Part shown: positions 25,859-34,234 of the stretch, piece by piece
Position numbering within the stretch: position 1 is the first letter of the stretch
How the letters are laid out: each line of letters opens with the position of its first letter
DNA from: a virus
Lineage: Duplodnaviria > Heunggongvirae > Uroviricota > Caudoviricetes
Reading direction: 5' to 3' (one strand)
DNA length: 34,234 nt
Virus record (IMG/VR): IMGVR_UViG_2609459856_000009
Notes under the pieces: generated by a model
The model's input: only the letters and a program-made list of their open reading frames with translations
Told to the model about the DNA's origin: nothing
Databases searched by the model: none
Position numbers and translations under genes: made by a program

Positions 25859-26134
25859 ATGTCGATGTACACAACCGCCCAGCTGCTGGCGGCAAATGAG
25901 CAGAAATTTAAGTTTGATCCGCTGTTTCTGCGTCTCTTTTTCCGTGAGAGCTATCCCTTCACCACGGAGAAAGTCTATCTCTCACAAATTCCGGGACTGG
26001 TAAACATGGCGCTGTACGTTTCGCCGATTGTTTCCGGTGAGGTTATCCGTTCCCGTGGCGGATCCACCTCTGAATTTACGCCGGGATATGTCAAACCCAA
26101 GCACTTAGCATGGCTTTCTGAGGCTTTCGTGTAG
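25859..26134 (+). pseudogene. E: Major capsid protein E, truncated: only codons 1-82 are lambda-like, then 9 junction-derived codons and a stop
   Basis: Product matches lambda gpE through ...SEFTPGYVKPKH (ending at nt 26104), then diverges (LAWLSEAFV, stop). Lambda E is about 341 aa; the remainder is replaced by the integrase-bearing element. Confidence 0.9.
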
Positions 26135-26266: not shown

Positions 26267-27502
26267 ATGGCTGGCGAGAACAAACTGAGCGACAAAGCGC
26301 TTAAAGGATATCTGGGGAAACCCAGAGAAAAGCAGATCACCATTGCTGATGGAAAGGGGCTTTCTATTCGTGTGAGTACTAAAGGGGCTGTGAGCTTTGT
26401 TTTCTTCTACAGGTTAGCAGGTGGCCGGGATGCTCCGGTCTGGCTAACGTTGGGTAAATATCCTGATATGTCACTCAAACAGGCAAGGGAAAAGCGCGAC
26501 GAGTGCCGTGGTTGGTTGGCTGACAAACGTGATCCGCGTATCCAGATTAAGATTCAGGCTGAAGAACGCTTAAAGCCGGTCACAGTGGAGGATGCACTAA
26601 ATTACTGGTATGAAAATTACTGTAAGGTGCGTCGTAAAACTCATGCTGTAACGCTTGGCAGATTTCGAAAGCATATCTTTCCCTATATCGGTCATTTGCC
26701 CGTAAATGACACTCACCTATATGAATGGCTGGACTGTTTTGACCGAATTAAACGTAATGCACCAGTTATGGCGGCGTATGTTTTTTCTGACACTAAATTA
26801 GCTCTTCGTTTTTGTCGGGTACGCCAGTACGCGACGTGTGATGCTTTAAAGGATTTGCGCATGAGTGATGTGGGGCAGATTGCAGGTAAGCGGGATCGGG
26901 TTCTGGATGAAGCCGAACTGGGCCAGCTCTGGAAGGCAATTTTTGTCGAGCCTGATTTAAAACTAATGTCTGAATACACGCGAAAAATGTTTGTGCTTTG
27001 TACAGTATTTGGATGTCGAATGAGTGAAGCCCGATTATCTGAATGGAGCGAATGGGATCTCGAAAGTTGGGTTTGGACTGTACCAAAAGATCACTCAAAA
27101 ACTGGTGTTGAAATCGTCAGACCAGTACCTGAAATTCTACGACAGTGGGTAACGGATGTTCACGAAGAGACAAAACATACTGGTTATGTGCTGGGAAGTC
27201 TGCGAATTAGAGAAAGCGTAAGCAAGATTGGGGGGAAAATCGGTAAACGTTTGGGCCATGAAAAACAATGGTCACTACACGACCTTAGAAGAACGCTATC
27301 TACTCATCTAAGTGATCTCGGTGTTGAATTTTATGTAGTAGAACAACTGTTAGGCCATGCGCTACCTGGCGTGGCAGGTGTTTACAACCGGAGTAAGTTT
27401 ATGGCTAAAAAACTGGATGCTCTGGAACTCTGGACTACATATCTCAATAGCATCGCAGGTGCTGATTCAAAAGTGACAATCCTCAAACAAAAGGCTGGTT
27501 AA
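26267..27502 (+). CDS. int: P4-family tyrosine integrase of the inserted element
   Basis: About 411-aa product from MAGENKLSDKALKGYLGKP... with an N-terminal arm-binding-like region and C-terminal catalytic motifs (HDLRRTLSTHL, LLGHALPGVAGVYNRS). Begins about 160 bp after the E breakpoint. Confidence 0.85.
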   Translation: MAGENKLSDKALKGYLGKPREKQITIADGKGLSIRVSTKGAVSFVFFYRLAGGRDAPVWLTLGKYPDMSLKQAREKRDECRGWLADKRDPRIQIKIQAEERLKPVTVEDALNYWYENYCKVRRKTHAVTLGRFRKHIFPYIGHLPVNDTHLYEWLDCFDRIKRNAPVMAAYVFSDTKLALRFCRVRQYATCDALKDLRMSDVGQIAGKRDRVLDEAELGQLWKAIFVEPDLKLMSEYTRKMFVLCTVFGCRMSEARLSEWSEWDLESWVWTVPKDHSKTGVEIVRPVPEILRQWVTDVHEETKHTGYVLGSLRIRESVSKIGGKIGKRLGHEKQWSLHDLRRTLSTHLSDLGVEFYVVEQLLGHALPGVAGVYNRSKFMAKKLDALELWTTYLNSIAGADSKVTILKQKAG

Positions 27503-27503
27503 C

Positions 27504-27731
27504 ATGAAAAAAATGGCAATTGTTGATAAAAAGGGTCTGGAGTACATTCCTAACATCGATCGTATGATCCGTGAGAAAGAATGTCGGGAGCTAACCACTC
27601 TTGCAAACAGCACACGCTGGAAGCTGGAGAAGGAAGGAAAATTTCCTAAGCGGATCAAGATTGGTTCCACTGCTGTTGCATATCGTCTTTCAGAAGTGCA
27701 GGCATGGATTCGAGGTGAGTGGGTAGTTTAA
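27504..27731 (+). CDS. alpA: AlpA-family transcriptional regulator / excisionase-like protein
   Basis: 75-aa product with an AlpA-type HTH (ELTTLANSTRWKLEKEGKFPKRIKIGSTAVAYRLSEVQAWI), immediately downstream of the integrase. Confidence 0.8.
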   Translation: MKKMAIVDKKGLEYIPNIDRMIREKECRELTTLANSTRWKLEKEGKFPKRIKIGSTAVAYRLSEVQAWIRGEWVV

Positions 27732-27756
27732 ATTATCTCAGAATAAAATATTATGA

Positions 27757-27792
27757 ATTACTGATTTGAGAATTTGTACTCAAATCAGTAAT
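27757..27792. terminator. Bidirectional hairpin between convergent alpA and the membrane-protein gene
   Basis: Perfect 14-bp inverted repeat ATTACTGATTTGAG / CTCAAATCAGTAAT with an 8-nt loop, flanked by T-rich sequence on both strands. Confidence 0.6.
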
Positions 27793-27800
27793 AACATTCT

Positions 27801-28337
27801 TTATAAGAGATTAAATCCAAATAAAGAGTAATCATATACCGGGGTGCATTGCATCCCACTGAATATGCTGATGTTTTTTTCTGTTTCTATCCTTTTTTCA
27901 ATAAGTTGTTGTATATTTTTACAGTACAATTTGTGTGTGATGTTATTATCGTAAGCCTGATATAGCAACGTCAATGTTGACGCTAGGAAACATACAGATA
28001 AAATTAAAATAATATATGCAGTTTTTTTATTTTTTGTCCATGATCTATTTGTTTGTGAAATATAAAGAATTCTGAGGTGGATAATGGTGAGAGACAATAG
28101 CAGGCCACTCAATAAAATAAGTATTGGGTTTGCGTATTTTATTAATGGTTGAGAGCAAAAAACTATTATAGCTCCTGTGACTGCGTATGAGAAAAAGGAG
28201 TGATTAAACTTCTTACTCCTTCTCTCAAGTATTTTAATTTCATCTTGCGTGGGGGTTTTAGATGCCTCTAATATAAGTTTATTGAATTTTTCTGTTATCT
28301 TGTTTTTTGTGTTTGTGGCTATTTTTTTTAGATTCAT
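27801..28337 (-). CDS. Hypothetical AT-rich integral membrane protein (three predicted transmembrane helices), element cargo
   Basis: 178-aa ORF with K/N/I-rich composition, three hydrophobic segments (FFSYAVTGAIIVFCSQPLI; ILILLSGLLLSLTIIHLRILYI; AYIILILSVCFLASTLTLLY) and soluble termini. Strongly AT-rich compared with neighbouring element genes. Confidence 0.6.
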   Translation of the reverse strand: MNLKKIATNTKNKITEKFNKLILEASKTPTQDEIKILERRSKKFNHSFFSYAVTGAIIVFCSQPLIKYANPILILLSGLLLSLTIIHLRILYISQTNRSWTKNKKTAYIILILSVCFLASTLTLLYQAYDNNITHKLYCKNIQQLIEKRIETEKNISIFSGMQCTPVYDYSLFGFNLL

Positions 28338-28687
28338 AGCATTCTAACTCCCTTAACTTATTTATTACTTTCTCTTTATGATAAGAGAGGGGAATGACTT
28401 GGTAAAGTGATTTGTCATTAATAATGATAATCCTTGCGATAAATATTTCTGCAAGTTATTTATCTGTTTGTTGCTATCTTGTTAAGCGTTGGGTGTGGTT
28501 TATGTTTGGAGTGACTTTATTTAATCGTGATTTTATGGATTTATATTTATATCCTGTAAGATAAGCGCATGTTAGTTCAGGAGTAGTGTCAGATAAAATT
28601 ATTCGGAGTAGAACTACCTTTTCTGTTTATTGCCAGTATTTACATAGCAATGCGCCGTAGTTACTCACATCACGGCGCTGATACTAA

Positions 28688-28990
28688 TTATTCAGATTCT
28701 TTGGCTTTACGCCGCTGGAGTTCTTCACGAGCGACGGCTACGAGTTGCCCGATTTCCTCCGCTACCTTGATGCCGATTTGTTCGACCTTAGCTAAGGCAT
28801 CCAGTGAAGACACGAGGGGATTTTCTCCGCTTCCTTCTGCCTGGCGGCGGGCGATCTCACCGCGCATGGCGGTTACTATGAATCCGGCGTTGCTTTCGCC
28901 GTCCAGTTTTACGGATTCCATGCCCTCCATAACATCGTGGGGAACCCTGATCGTTGTCATTTGCGATTTTGCATTTTTGTATACAGACAT
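28688..28990 (-). CDS. Putative ribbon-helix-helix (Arc/CopG-like) DNA-binding regulator
   Basis: 100-aa ORF; the N-terminus (MTTIRVPHDVMEGMESVKLDGESNAGFIVTAMRGEI) has a beta-strand-then-helix pattern typical of RHH repressors; divergent from the operator-repeat array. Confidence 0.5.
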   Translation of the reverse strand: MSVYKNAKSQMTTIRVPHDVMEGMESVKLDGESNAGFIVTAMRGEIARRQAEGSGENPLVSSLDALAKVEQIGIKVAEEIGQLVAVAREELQRRKAKESE

Positions 28991-29010
28991 AGTTAATCAC
29001 CAATTTGTTA

Positions 29011-29111
29011 TGTGTATATCACTATACACAAAAGTGAGATATAAAAACACTTGCAATGTATATCACCACAATATAATGTATATCTCACATTATGGTCGCT
29101 ATGTATCTCAC
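29011..29111. promoter_or_regulatory. Operator-like repeat array in the divergent intergenic region of the element
   Basis: Perfect palindrome TGTGTATA-TCAC-TATACACA (29011-29030) plus further copies of TGTAT(AT)C(T)CAC at 29057-29066, 29077-29088 and 29102-29111, and an inverted copy TGAGATAT (29035-29042). Confidence 0.55.
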
Positions 29112-29198
29112 AATGATCGATTCATAAAAACGACGAAACCCGGCAGTGCGCGAACACTAACCGGGCTTCTAACCAAACCGTTAAACGAGGTAACGACT

Positions 29199-29489
29199 AT
29201 GGCTGGAACACAGCATACCCAAACTCACCCTAAATTTATATACATCTTTCTGGCGCTACATCGCGATCGCATAGCAGATGGAGCAACTACGGTACATGTA
29301 GCCGCTGACACGCTGTTTATTCAGAAATGTGAAAACAATTTCATCTGGCGTTTTATCGCCCTGAGTACGGCACAACCGCGCGTGATTACCATCGAGGCCA
29401 CCAGCGAACAGGAAGCCCGCCAGCAATCCCCAACTGGCTGCGTGATGATATTCGCCGCCCGTATTCGTCAGGAGGTGTGCCATGAATGA
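29199..29489 (+). CDS. Icd-like small protein (P4-type satellite family)
   Basis: 96-aa product from MAGTQHTQTHPKF... with segments (NFIWRFIALS, VITIEA, EARQQSPTGCVMIFAARI) resembling Icd-like proteins of P4-type elements as I recall them; ATG 29199 is in frame inside the 279-aa track ORF. Confidence 0.45.
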   Translation: MAGTQHTQTHPKFIYIFLALHRDRIADGATTVHVAADTLFIQKCENNFIWRFIALSTAQPRVITIEATSEQEARQQSPTGCVMIFAARIRQEVCHE

Positions 29490-29706
29490 TCTTTATTTTA
29501 AAGTGCTGACACATGCTGAAAACGCGCTCGTTTGTGGCAAAAATATGCGAGAAATCTTATCAACCTGGCTTGATGGGACAACAAATGCGGAACACGATGA
29601 ACGGGATGCTAATTTAGCTGGAGCGTTAATTACGTTACTTGATCCTGTCATCAAAGAGCTGGATGAAGCTATAAAAATACACGACCAGAGCTATACCGGA
29701 GAATAA
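29482..29706 (+). CDS. Hypothetical protein
   Basis: 74-aa ORF overlapping the upstream gene end by 8 nt; operon-like packing. Confidence 0.45.
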   Translation: MNDLYFKVLTHAENALVCGKNMREILSTWLDGTTNAEHDERDANLAGALITLLDPVIKELDEAIKIHDQSYTGE

Positions 29707-32835: not shown

Positions 32836-33009
32836 ATGCTACATAAATCCCGACCAAAGGGAGTGAAGATATTAACACTAATTATCCGCGCTGAAGTTGT
32901 TATCCCAAAACTTTATACAACATTGCACTCGGTTGCATGTATTCGCATGACAAATATCGGTGATAGCATATATCCACAATTATTTTTAATGAATGCAAAG
33001 AGGATGCGT

Positions 33010-34234
<1,225 letters not shown>

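What the first reader, a model, noticed from the sequence alone, without database searches (positions are those of the whole stretch)
27757..28650. AT-rich three-helix membrane protein as cargo between alpA and the regulatory switch of the element
The 178-aa gene at 27801-28337 (minus strand) is far more AT-rich than the surrounding element genes. It is convergent with int-alpA across a perfect 14-bp bidirectional hairpin and is followed by about 350 bp of AT-rich non-coding DNA containing a GCGCCGT...ACGGCGC hairpin (about 28654-28680). The product has a Lys/Asn-rich cytoplasmic N-terminus, three transmembrane helices and a soluble C-terminus, with no family I recognise. In P4-like satellites and chromosomal islands, variable single-gene inserts next to int are frequent sites of anti-phage or superinfection-exclusion cargo.
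Basis: partly seen in the sequence, partly recalled or inferred. Interest (0 to 1): 0.65.

Follow-up and report, generated by a model that had tools for sequence, protein, structure and literature searches.

The report
Orphan membrane protein in satellite hotspot
A small, AT-rich inner-membrane protein from an uncharacterised family sits in the exchangeable defence-gene slot of a known phage satellite embedded in a lambda-like E. coli prophage, which makes it a reasonable but untested candidate for a new phage-exclusion gene.

Summary
The gene at 27801-28337 (-) is a real 178-aa gene with 30.5% GC, against 40-56% for the neighbouring element genes. It is bounded by a perfect 14-bp hairpin and a 350-bp AT-rich spacer. 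The product has three predicted TM helices, N-terminus in and C-terminus out.

The element is a close relative of the published helper-embedded PICI Eco567.11capE of E. coli NRG857c, inserted in the prophage capsid gene E.

The slot after alpA is a swap site. About 175 E. coli genomes carry the same int-alpA, and 67-68 of them carry this gene. In sampled others the slot holds PD-T7-1, a TIR protein (PDC-S35), putAbiC, DUF2971+SWIM or another unknown.

The protein matches no Pfam, PADLOC, PHROG, NCBIfam or PDB family and no known fold. It belongs to a rare family of about 20 clusters in Gammaproteobacteria. Conservation is highest on the predicted periplasmic face and includes two invariant cysteines. 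Relatives lie in a diverged satellite, in a prophage moron slot, and beside a retron and SoFic.

My best guess, untested, is a SieA-like block of phage genome entry. It is analogous to P22 SieA, not homologous. Abortive infection is the main rival.

Interest is moderate: a good candidate in an already-described element and kind of slot.

The parts
27504..27731 (+). alpA (75 aa), the last conserved gene of the integration zone and left border of the slot
   Evidence: Pfam Phage_AlpA E 2.8e-15. Homology to sister elements ends at 27722-27728.
27729..28645 (.). Exchangeable ORF178 cargo module: hairpin, gene and AT-rich upstream spacer
   Evidence: Boundaries come from blastn against sister HE-PICIs and from the onset of ylcI homology at query position 1744-1747. 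The module is found in 68 of 5426 E. coli genomes, and in 68 the match extends across the same int-alpA.
27757..27792 (.). Perfect 14-bp inverted repeat with an 8-nt loop, a likely bidirectional terminator between convergent alpA and ORF178
   Evidence: z -4.1 / -6.6; I2. Only 1 variable column in 69 across 7 alleles.
27801..28337 (-). ORF178: 178-aa predicted inner-membrane protein. Three TM helices (46-66, 72-92, 107-127), N-in/C-out, periplasmic C-terminal domain with invariant C139 and C164
   Evidence: Codons 1-78 give dN/dS 0.13-0.29 between alleles; codons 126-178 show at most one change of each kind, too few for a ratio. Distant homologues keep P71, G78, C139, Q143, F159 and C164.
27965..28104 (-). 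Mosaic, highly diverged patch inside ORF178 (aa 79-125: end of TM2, cytoplasmic loop, TM3). Includes a compensating +1/-1 indel pair at 28000/28029
   Evidence: Variable columns cluster here. dS 0.39 and dN 0.33 in this patch, against dS 0.09 and dN 0.01 in codons 1-78.
28338..28650 (-). AT-rich 5' region of ORF178. Contains an SD-like AAGGGAG read by eye about 10 nt before the ATG, and a sigma-70-like site TTTACC-17-TATCAT at 28406-28378
   Evidence: consensus match only. 33% GC. Only 5 of 313 columns vary among 7 alleles.
28652..28680 (-). GCGCCGT(N13)ACGGCGC hairpin just after the ylcI stop. It marks the right border of the cargo module and is probably a weak terminator or 3'-end structure for ylcI
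   Evidence: -17.2 kcal/mol, z -2.3. No U-tract. ylcI homology in unrelated PICIs starts here.
28688..28990 (-). Leftward YlcI/YnfO-family gene (100 aa). ORF178 lies downstream of it on the same strand
   Evidence: NCBIfam YlcI_YnfO_N E 7e-20. PHROG 6522 E 9e-61.
28991..29198 (.). Divergent control region ('switch') carrying ATGTATATC(T)CAC-type direct and inverted repeats
   Evidence: D2, D7, I7, I13. Sequence read.

Best explanation
SHOWN. ORF178 is a genuine protein-coding gene acquired horizontally (AT-rich). It is carried as exchangeable cargo in the accessory slot just after int-alpA of a helper-embedded PICI of the 11capE type. That slot holds known or candidate anti-phage genes in sister elements.

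PREDICTED FROM SEQUENCE. The product is an inner-membrane protein with three TM helices. It has a basic cytoplasmic N-terminus and a roughly 50-aa periplasmic C-terminal helical hairpin, probably stapled by a C139-C164 disulfide. Family conservation is highest on the predicted periplasmic face: the QPLxKYANP loop and the C-domain.

INFERRED. The gene is transcribed leftward in the quiescent satellite, from its own promoter and/or by read-through from the leftward ylcI-type regulator. This would resemble cI-rexAB in lambda and mnt...sieA in P22. The protein then protects the cell carrying the satellite and its helper against superinfecting phages by interfering, at the periplasmic face of the inner membrane, with phage genome entry. 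The target could be the incoming tape-measure or ejection-protein conduit, or a host inner-membrane entry factor. This is a SieA/HK97-gp15-like superinfection-exclusion mechanism reached by a non-homologous protein.
For: Real gene:
- Eleven proteins at E<=1e-3 among 1.84 billion cluster representatives, ten of them distant (24-37% identity, 113-175 aa).
- Invariant P71, G78, C139, Q143, F159 and C164.
- dN/dS of 0.13-0.29 in codons 1-78.

Hotspot:
- The module boundaries are sharp.
- ORF178 occupies the slot in 67-68 of 175 elements.
- Alternative cargos are PD-T7-1, TIR/PDC-S35, putAbiC, DUF2971+SWIM and a 467-aa unknown.
- The literature states that PICIs carry immune systems at their 5' or 3' ends (PMC11364771).

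Mobile-element and defence association of the family:
- P0009 (37% identity) lies in the same slot and orientation in a diverged capsid-E satellite. It starts 66 bp after an uncalled 59-aa leftward regulator-like ORF.
- P0016 and P0021 are opposite-strand morons between the Mu-F-like and the next head genes of prophages; cluster members of P0021 are from Enterobacter.
- P0015 lies 49 bp after a retron type XI RT-protease and near SoFic in Pseudomonas mandelii.
- Family genes are AT-rich relative to their flanks in all eight contexts checked, by 7 to 24 percentage points of GC.

Periplasmic action:
- Charge distribution is consistent across the family. Loop 2 has +1 to +5 and no acidic residue in 11 of 12 members (none of either in one). 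The C-domain is roughly charge-balanced.
- Conservation is highest in periplasmic loop 1 (0.74) and the C-domain (0.55), and lowest in TM3 (0.32) and cytoplasmic loop 2 (0.42).
- Two invariant cysteines lie on the periplasmic side.

Functional analogue: P22 SieA is a 162-164-aa inner-membrane protein with three predicted TM domains that alone blocks DNA injection (PMC10883804). Its gene is also AT-rich (33.7% against 43.6%), convergent with a rightward gene, and downstream of the leftward mnt regulator.
Against: - There is no phenotype, expression or localisation data.
- There is no homology to SieA (hhalign probability 0.2%) or to any Sie or defence model.
- Topology is predicted only from hydropathy and charge.
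- The promoter is a 9/12 consensus match in AT-rich DNA, where such matches are common (10 found against 6.6 expected).
- Two of seven sampled alleles are frameshifted, so the gene is dispensable and sometimes decaying.
- Position in a hotspot is guilt by association. Not all hotspot cargo is defensive.
- Several sister cargos (putAbiC, TIR) are abortive-infection-type, which favours the main rival about as much.
- Some family members sit in plain chromosomal contexts, for example Ewingella.
Confidence: 0.4

Rival explanations
1. Abortive-infection membrane effector. ORF178 is a latent pore-former or membrane-depolarising toxin, like the 2TM/SLATT-type effectors, RexB or AbiZ-type proteins. 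A phage cue triggers it, and the infected cell is killed or arrested before phage release.
For: Sister cargos in the same slot are Abi-type: putAbiC (itself a membrane protein family), TIR/PDC-S35 and PD-T7-1. One family member lies directly after a retron XI RT-protease. ORF178 gives sub-threshold Pfam hits to two 2-TM families, Saf_2TM (E 0.037) and DUF4231 (E 0.036).
Against: The weak Pfam hits score 14-15 bits against cut-offs of 25-30, and each is seen in only 1 of 12 members. They are typical compositional matches between TM segments. ORF178 has no recognisable sensor domain. The most conserved surfaces are predicted to be periplasmic, not cytoplasmic where phage cues arise. The retron link is not recurrent: none of 15 other loci encoding relatives of that RT has a family member within 3 kb.
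Confidence: 0.2
2. A function unrelated to phage defence. This could be a lysogenic-conversion or host-adaptive membrane factor (envelope stress, colonisation of AIEC/ExPEC-type hosts). It could also be a satellite life-cycle accessory, for example modulating lysis timing or helper entry.
For: Mobile-element accessory slots also carry virulence and host-adaptive genes; for example EcCIMP1 carries a PerC-like regulator (PMC11773190). Some family members lie in chromosomal, non-mobile contexts (Ewingella; Pseudomonas). No defence model matches.
Against: Every identifiable alternative cargo in this exact slot is defence-related. The gene points away from the satellite's rightward replication and late operon. 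Its predicted topology (N-in/C-out, 178 aa) does not fit class I holins, which from my own knowledge are N-out/C-in like lambda S105. It is not in a lysis cassette either.
Confidence: 0.15
3. Orphan immunity protein against a membrane-targeting bacteriocin or contact-dependent toxin, such as a pore-forming colicin or pyocin, or a CDI or T6SS ionophore.
For: From my own knowledge, immunity proteins to pore-forming colicins are small AT-rich inner-membrane proteins with 3-4 TM helices, often encoded on the opposite strand. P0019 lies 3.4 kb from a pyocin-S locus. P0010 lies about 1 kb from an Imm42 gene, beside an integrase fragment.
Against: There is no Pfam colicin-immunity hit even at E 0.1. 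None of about 12 contexts has a toxin gene adjacent. The nearby pyocin has a nuclease-type cytotoxic domain with its own small downstream gene. tblastn against 72,556 plasmids gave one weak hit in an unannotated stretch of a Pantoea plasmid with no bacteriocin gene nearby.
Confidence: 0.07
4. A decaying hitch-hiker: an AT-rich foreign gene with no current selected function in E. coli, probably silenced, that travels with the ylcI immunity module.
For: Two of seven sampled alleles carry frameshifts. Truncated forms exist in the databases (P0006-P0008). The family is extremely rare.
Against: Codons 1-78 are under purifying selection (dN/dS 0.13-0.29) and codons 126-178 are almost unchanged between alleles. 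The compensating +1/-1 indel pair restores the frame. Motifs and the cysteine pair are conserved at 24-37% identity across genera. The gene holds the same position in a satellite whose int-alpA region is only 78% identical at the DNA level.
Confidence: 0.05

Closest known systems
P22 SieA superinfection-exclusion protein (Leavitt et al. 2024, PMC10883804)
   Same: A single small inner-membrane protein (162-164 aa against 178 aa) with three predicted TM helices. The gene is AT-rich relative to its genome (33.7% against 43.6%; here 30.5% against about 45-50%). It is encoded leftward, convergent with a rightward gene, and downstream of a leftward regulator (mnt there, ylcI here). SieA types differ by more than 70% in sequence yet keep their function, so low identity within such families is normal.
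   Different: No detectable homology (hhalign probability 0.2%). The SieA motif FxRYPxEAxxFNK, which is predicted to be cytoplasmic, is absent. ORF178's conserved surface is predicted to be periplasmic and carries a cysteine pair. The carrier is a satellite of lambdoid siphophages, not a P22-like podophage. The function of ORF178 is untested.
Accessory (immune) regions of Gram-negative PICIs (statement in PMC11364771 citing Fillol-Salom et al. 2022) and hotspots of P4-like satellites (Rousset et al. 2022, PMC9122126)
   Same: A fixed position in the element where unrelated genes are swapped between otherwise near-identical satellites, many of them anti-phage. Here the alternatives are PD-T7-1, TIR/PDC-S35 and putAbiC.
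   Different: This is the helper-embedded PICI lineage, whose published description (PMC10111431) calls this zone the 'Bro zone' and does not discuss defence cargo ('defense' occurs once and 'cargo' never in its text). The swapped block can include the leftward regulator and its operators as well as the cargo.
HE-PICI Eco567.11capE of E. coli NRG857c (Tommasini, Mageeney & Williams 2023, PMC10111431)
   Same: The finding lies in a copy of this element. The 27700-28700 and 26900-29500 segments are 100% identical to NC_017634.1. The gene order is the same and the integration site is inside the lambda-like capsid gene E.
   Different: The window as a whole is 98.5% identical over 14 kb and carries an IS3-family insertion in the satellite capsid gene, so it comes from a sister strain. 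The paper does not single out this gene.
Phage morons (Cumby et al. 2012, 'The moron comes of age', PMC3594210; HK97 gp15 by my own recollection)
   Same: An AT-rich, apparently independent transcription unit with a promoter-like site and flanking hairpins, inserted between conserved genes. Family members P0016 and P0021 are opposite-strand inserts within prophage head-gene clusters.
   Different: The carrier here is a satellite. There is no sequence relation to gp15 or to any PHROG with a known function.

Membership tests
P22 SieA family (types A-C) | Sequence homology to SieA, including the conserved FxRYPxEAxxFNK motif near the C-terminus | tested here: not met
   hhalign of the family profile against P22 SieA gives probability 0.2% and E 0.39. 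The motif is absent from the ORF178 sequence. No PHROG hit to an annotated exclusion family.
P22 SieA family (types A-C) | Inner-membrane protein of about 160-200 aa with 3-4 TM helices | tested here: met
   178 aa and three hydrophobic segments. AlphaFold2 model with helices spanning them. This is prediction only.
P22 SieA family (types A-C) | Sufficient on its own to block phage DNA injection | not testable with these tools
   Needs plating, K+ efflux and DNA-entry assays.
PICI / HE-PICI 5' accessory (defence) hotspot cargo | Located between the int-alpA integration zone and the regulatory/replication zone | tested here: met
   Gene order is int, alpA, ORF178, ylcI, icd-like, DUF4222, primase.
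PICI / HE-PICI 5' accessory (defence) hotspot cargo | Content varies among elements whose flanking core genes are near-identical | tested here: met
   int-alpA is 94-99.8% identical while the slot content is unrelated. Six different cargos appear in 13 sampled elements. ORF178 is in 67-68 of 175.
PICI / HE-PICI 5' accessory (defence) hotspot cargo | Known anti-phage genes occupy the same slot in sister elements | tested here: met
   PD-T7-1 E 1.2e-124, PDC-S35 (TIR) E 6.9e-67, putAbiC E 2.8e-16.
PICI / HE-PICI 5' accessory (defence) hotspot cargo | The cargo itself confers phage resistance | not testable with these tools
   Experimental.
Pore-forming colicin immunity proteins (Pfam Colicin_im / Colicin_immun) | Profile match to an immunity family | tested here: not met
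   No such hit for ORF178 or for any of 12 family members at E<=0.1.
Pore-forming colicin immunity proteins (Pfam Colicin_im / Colicin_immun) | Encoded next to the cognate toxin gene or in an immunity array | tested here: not met
   No adjacent toxin in any context examined.
2TM/SLATT-type membrane effectors (Saf_2TM, DUF4231) | Profile match above the curated threshold | tested here: not met
   14.3 and 14.9 bits against cut-offs of 29.5 and 24.7, each in 1 of 12 members only.
Retron type XI accessory protein | Recurrent adjacency to RT-protease genes | tested here: not met
   Adjacent once, in P. mandelii. Absent within 3 kb of 15 other loci encoding relatives of that RT; an hmmsearch of all ORFs of 60 aa or more found only the P. 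mandelii copy. PADLOC lists type XI as a single-gene system.
Moron (independent AT-rich transcription unit inserted in a mobile element) | Own promoter and terminator, and a composition unlike the flanks | tested here: inconclusive
   The compositional contrast and the flanking hairpins are clear. The promoter is only a 9/12 consensus match. No transcript data.
Class I holins | Three TM helices with N-out/C-in topology, encoded in a lysis cassette | tested here: not met
   The charge distribution predicts N-in/C-out. The neighbours are alpA and ylcI, not lysis genes. The defining holin topology is from my own knowledge.

The most novel reading that the evidence does not exclude
ORF178 is the founding member of a previously unrecognised family of single-protein phage-exclusion determinants. 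The family is shared by phage satellites, prophage moron slots and defence islands across Enterobacterales and Pseudomonas. It acts from the inner membrane through a small disulfide-stapled periplasmic domain to stop genome entry of lambdoid (tape-measure-dependent) phages. On this reading the diverged TM2-loop-TM3 patch, with its frame-restoring indel pair, reflects allele exchange under phage pressure.
Probability: 0.3. Interest if true: 0.55.

Novelty: new variant of a known kind. Interest (0 to 1): 0.38.

Why it matters
If ORF178 blocks phage entry, it would add a new, non-homologous family to the short list of single-protein inner-membrane exclusion factors (SieA, Imm, HK97 gp15). Its conserved periplasmic domain would be easy to mutate, which would give a handle on how siphophage DNA crosses the inner membrane.

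It would also show that helper-embedded PICIs protect the composite prophage they live in. The paper that describes these elements does not examine that aspect. The alpA-proximal slot of this lineage would then be a place to mine further unknown genes, such as the 467-aa and 203-aa unknowns seen here.

If the gene has no phage phenotype, it remains one more orphan membrane protein on a mobile element.

Tried and rejected
- Profile libraries. Pfam, PADLOC, PHROGs and NCBIfam gave nothing for ORF178. There were only sub-threshold TM-composition hits (EcsB, DUF443, DUF2721, DUF4131, Saf_2TM, DUF4231).
- PDB sequence profile search. One chance hit at E 0.51.
- Direct test of SieA homology. Negative.
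- tblastn against 50,697 deposited phages with ORF178 and with P0021. No match.
- tblastn against plasmids. One weak hit in an unannotated stretch of a Pantoea plasmid, uninformative.
- Retron XI partner hypothesis. Tested on 15 related RT loci and rejected.
- The search for related loci with the family alignment. Failed because no sufficiently conserved 7-10-column stretch exists.
- Rfam over the element. Nothing in the ORF178 module.
- Literature search by protein accession. No paper found. Fillol-Salom et al. 2022 (Cell) is not held, so it is cited only through PMC11364771.
- TA-module reading (small leftward gene as antitoxin, ORF178 as toxin). Rejected because the small leftward gene is present whatever the cargo and its orientation, including the rightward TIR and DUF2971 cargos.
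Full report
1. THE OBSERVATION

The ORF at 27801-28337 on the minus strand exists as described: ATG start, 178 codons. RefSeq annotates the identical gene as a hypothetical protein in E. coli NRG857c.

Its GC content is 30.5% and flat across codon positions. The surrounding element genes have 40-56% (int 45.0, alpA 43.9, ylcI 51.8, primase 50.1, ssb 56.2).

Between the convergent stops of alpA (27731) and ORF178 (27801) lies a perfect 14-bp inverted repeat, 27757-27770 / 27779-27792, with an 8-nt loop. It folds far better than shuffled sequence on both strands (z -4.1 and -6.6, 0 of 200 shuffles as stable). The terminator scan flags it.

Upstream of the gene are 350 non-coding bases at 33% GC. 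They end in the GCGCCGT(N13)ACGGCGC hairpin at 28652-28680, which lies directly after the stop of the leftward ylcI/ynfO-family gene. That hairpin is modest (z -2.3) and has no U-tract.

The protein has three hydrophobic segments at about 46-66, 72-92 and 107-127. The N-terminus is basic (12 K/R against 5 D/E in 45 residues). The second loop is basic (4 K/R, 0 D/E). The 51-residue C-terminus is charge-balanced. The one refinement is that the C-terminus is predicted to face the periplasm.

2. WHAT THE ELEMENT IS

The 27700-28700 and 26900-29500 segments are 100% identical to NC_017634.1, E. coli O83:H1 NRG857c.

The annotated context there is: lambda-like terminase, portal, S49 peptidase and decoration genes, then a capsid-E gene fragment. 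The element follows: int, alpA, ORF178, ylcI, icd-like, hyp, DUF4222, D5-type primase, hyp, SSB, its own capsid-E and decoration genes, HTH, hyp, and HEPN+DUF262. After it come the rest of the prophage capsid gene and the tail genes.

This is the founding helper-embedded PICI, Eco567.11capE, described by Tommasini, Mageeney and Williams (PMC10111431).

The window itself comes from a sister strain. It is 98.5% identical over 14 kb and carries an IS3-family insertion at about 33849 that truncates the satellite's capsid gene. The element and its integration site are therefore already known. That paper does not single out ORF178 and calls this part of the element the dynamic 'Bro zone'.

3. THE SLOT IS A SWAP SITE THAT HOLDS DEFENCE GENES

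The int-alpA segment occurs at 95% identity or more in 175 of 5426 complete E. coli genomes. The ORF178 segment occurs in 67-68 of them.

blastn against sister elements shows that homology stops at 27722-27728, just inside the end of alpA. It resumes at 29146-29169, just before the icd-like gene.

The ylcI gene of this element has 82-88% identical relatives in other PICIs, for example the tRNA-Pro PICI of Nissle 1917. That homology starts at 28643-28646, the GCGCCGT hairpin. The ORF178 module is therefore 27729-28645. It comprises the hairpin, the gene and its AT-rich upstream region.

In sampled sister elements, all also inserted in capsid gene E, the slot holds:
- a 227-aa putAbiC protein (Pfam E 2.8e-16);
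- a 291-aa TIR protein matching the PADLOC candidate PDC-S35 (E 6.9e-67);
- a 360-aa PD-T7-1 protein (E 1.2e-124);
- DUF2971 plus a SWIM protein;
- a 467-aa unknown
.

ORF178 also occurs with different downstream replication modules, so it recombines independently of the rest of the element.

The Penades group states that PICIs encode immune systems at their 5' or 3' ends (PMC11364771). This slot behaves as such a 5' region.

A small leftward regulator-like gene (ylcI/HicB-like, 59-100 aa) is annotated next to the slot in nearly all sampled elements, whatever the cargo. Leftward cargos (ORF178, putAbiC, PD-T7-1) lie downstream of it on the same strand. This is the layout that lambda uses for cI-rexAB and P22 for mnt...sieA (the lambda comparison is from my own knowledge).

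4. THE PROTEIN FAMILY

Against 5.8 billion clustered proteins, only E. coli sequences at 82% identity or more were found. An exhaustive phmmer scan of 1.84 billion cluster representatives added ten distant relatives (24-37% identity, 113-175 aa). A profile search added three more. All are called hypothetical where they carry a meaningful name; one metagenome source label (a histidine transporter name) looks like a misannotation.

Named sources are E. coli, a few Klebsiella, Phytobacter/Citrobacter, Enterobacter, Escherichia marmotae, Ewingella and Pseudomonas.

The alignment has invariant P71, G78, C139, Q143, F159 and C164. It also shows the motifs QPLxKYANP and HDxYCxxLQ...EKNSxIFxxMxCR.

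The charge pattern that predicts N-in/C-out holds across the family. Conservation peaks in the short TM1-TM2 loop (0.74) and the C-terminal domain (0.55). It is lowest in TM3 (0.32) and the cytoplasmic loop (0.42).

The AlphaFold2 model (12-sequence alignment, pLDDT 82.8) shows TM3 continuing as a long helix to residue 147. A short helix at 152-161 follows, which places C139 and C164 on adjacent elements. The model's coordinates could not be inspected, so the disulfide is an inference.

No library or fold search places the family.

5. CONTEXTS OF RELATIVES

- P0009 (37% identity, Phytobacter/Citrobacter) lies in a diverged satellite that is also inserted in a capsid-E gene. It is in the same slot with the same convergent orientation. 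It starts 66 bp after an uncalled 59-aa regulator-like ORF, with no long spacer. A 203-aa TM protein is a second cargo there.
- P0016 and P0021 are opposite-strand inserts between the Mu-F-like gene and the next head gene in two prophages, a classical moron position; cluster members of P0021 are from Enterobacter.
- P0015 (P. mandelii) lies 49 bp after a retron type XI RT-protease (E 1.4e-174), in an island that also holds SoFic. I tested whether this is a recurrent partnership. None of 15 other loci encoding relatives of that RT has a family member. It is co-location in a defence island, not a system component.
- P0010 lies next to an integrase fragment.
- P0012 (Ewingella), P0017 (metagenome contigs) and P0019 (Pseudomonas sp. 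R3-56) lie in ordinary or uninformative neighbourhoods.
- Family genes are AT-rich relative to their flanks in all eight contexts checked, from 7 points (50% against 57%) to 24 points (29% against 53%).

6. ALLELIC VARIATION

Among seven E. coli alleles, the flanking non-coding DNA is almost invariant (1.4-1.6% variable columns), while the ORF has 9.8%. The variation is concentrated at 27965-28104, which is aa 79-125. It includes a +1/-1 indel pair at 28000/28029 that recodes about ten codons and restores the frame.

In this patch dS is 0.39 and dN is 0.33. In codons 1-78 dS is 0.09 and dN is 0.01, and in codons 126-178 there are no changes between the window allele and allele L020.

High dS as well as high dN points to import of a diverged segment by recombination rather than to simple positive selection. 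Codons 1-78 are under purifying selection, and the C-terminal part is nearly unchanged. Two of the seven alleles are frameshifted, so loss occurs.

7. MECHANISM

Shown: a real, foreign, exchangeable gene in a slot used for anti-phage genes.

Predicted: an inner-membrane protein whose conserved surface faces the periplasm.

Inferred (confidence 0.4): expression in the quiescent satellite, and exclusion of superinfecting phages by interference with genome entry at the inner membrane.

The closest functional analogue is P22 SieA. It is 162-164 aa with three predicted TM domains, localises to the inner membrane, and is sufficient on its own to block injection (PMC10883804). Its gene is likewise AT-rich, convergent with a rightward gene, and downstream of a leftward regulator. 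Homology to SieA was tested and is absent.

The main rival (0.2) is an abortive-infection membrane effector. The Abi-type neighbours in the slot favour it. The absence of a sensor domain and the periplasmic bias of conservation weaken it.

The other rivals are a non-defence accessory role (0.15), an orphan bacteriocin immunity protein (0.07) and a decaying passenger (0.05).

8. NOVELTY AND VERDICT

The element is published, and the general idea that PICIs carry immune genes near int/alpA is published. What is new is modest:
- this particular, very rare protein family;
- its recurrence in satellite, moron and defence-island positions;
- the documentation that the alpA-proximal zone of helper-embedded PICIs is a defence-gene swap site.

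No function is demonstrated. I rate it as a new (non-homologous) variant of a known kind, with interest 0.38.

Noticed in passing
window 26105-26134 (junction) to beyond 34234: The whole satellite sits inside the lambda-like major capsid gene E of the prophage and brings its own capsid-E homologue (32836-33864) and, in NRG857c, a decoration gene. This is the published HE-PICI 11capE configuration (PMC10111431).
   Followed up: yes
window 33849-34234: An IS3-family transposase ORF (33857-34216, minus strand) interrupts the satellite's capsid gene at about 33849. NRG857c has the gene intact, so the window comes from a sister strain (98.5% identity over 14 kb). The satellite here may be defective in capsid production.
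   Followed up: partly
window 29132-29204 (-): Sub-threshold Rfam hit to the SymR antisense antitoxin RNA (33.6 bits against a gathering score of 61, E 0.002), antisense to the 5' end of the icd-like cell-division-inhibitor gene. There may be an antisense RNA controlling icd-like expression at the switch.
   Followed up: no
window 28996-29091: Direct and inverted repeats of ATGTATATC(T)CAC-type motifs lie between the divergent ylcI and icd-like genes. They look like operators of the satellite's regulatory switch.
   Followed up: partly
window 27965-28104 (within ORF178): Two allele classes differ sharply only in aa 79-125. The difference includes a compensating +1/-1 indel pair (28000/28029), while the flanking non-coding DNA is nearly invariant. 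This is a recombined mosaic patch in TM2-loop-TM3.
   Followed up: yes
L012 7752-7931 (+) and 8543-9154 (-): In a diverged capsid-E satellite (Phytobacter/Citrobacter), an uncalled 59-aa regulator-like ORF directly precedes the ORF178 homologue P0009. A 203-aa protein with an N-terminal TM segment, matching no family, shares the slot.
   Followed up: partly
L041 2962-8559: A Pseudomonas mandelii defence island holds SoFic, a retron type XI RT-protease, a family member (P0015) 49 bp downstream, and a DUF4238 protein. The adjacency of the RT and the TM protein is not recurrent in 15 related RT loci.
   Followed up: yes
L001 19601-21317 (NRG857c, beyond the window's end): The 3' end of the intact satellite carries a HEPN protein and a DUF262 protein on the opposite strand. 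This is probably a second (3') defence slot of the same element.
   Followed up: no
L004 3343-4746 (+): A 467-aa protein with no Pfam, PADLOC or NCBIfam match occupies the same alpA-proximal slot in strain 13E0767. It is another unknown candidate from this hotspot.
   Followed up: partly
window 28412-28564 (+): A 50-aa hydrophobic TTG-start ORF lies on the opposite strand within the AT-rich spacer upstream of ORF178. It is probably spurious and was not examined.
   Followed up: no
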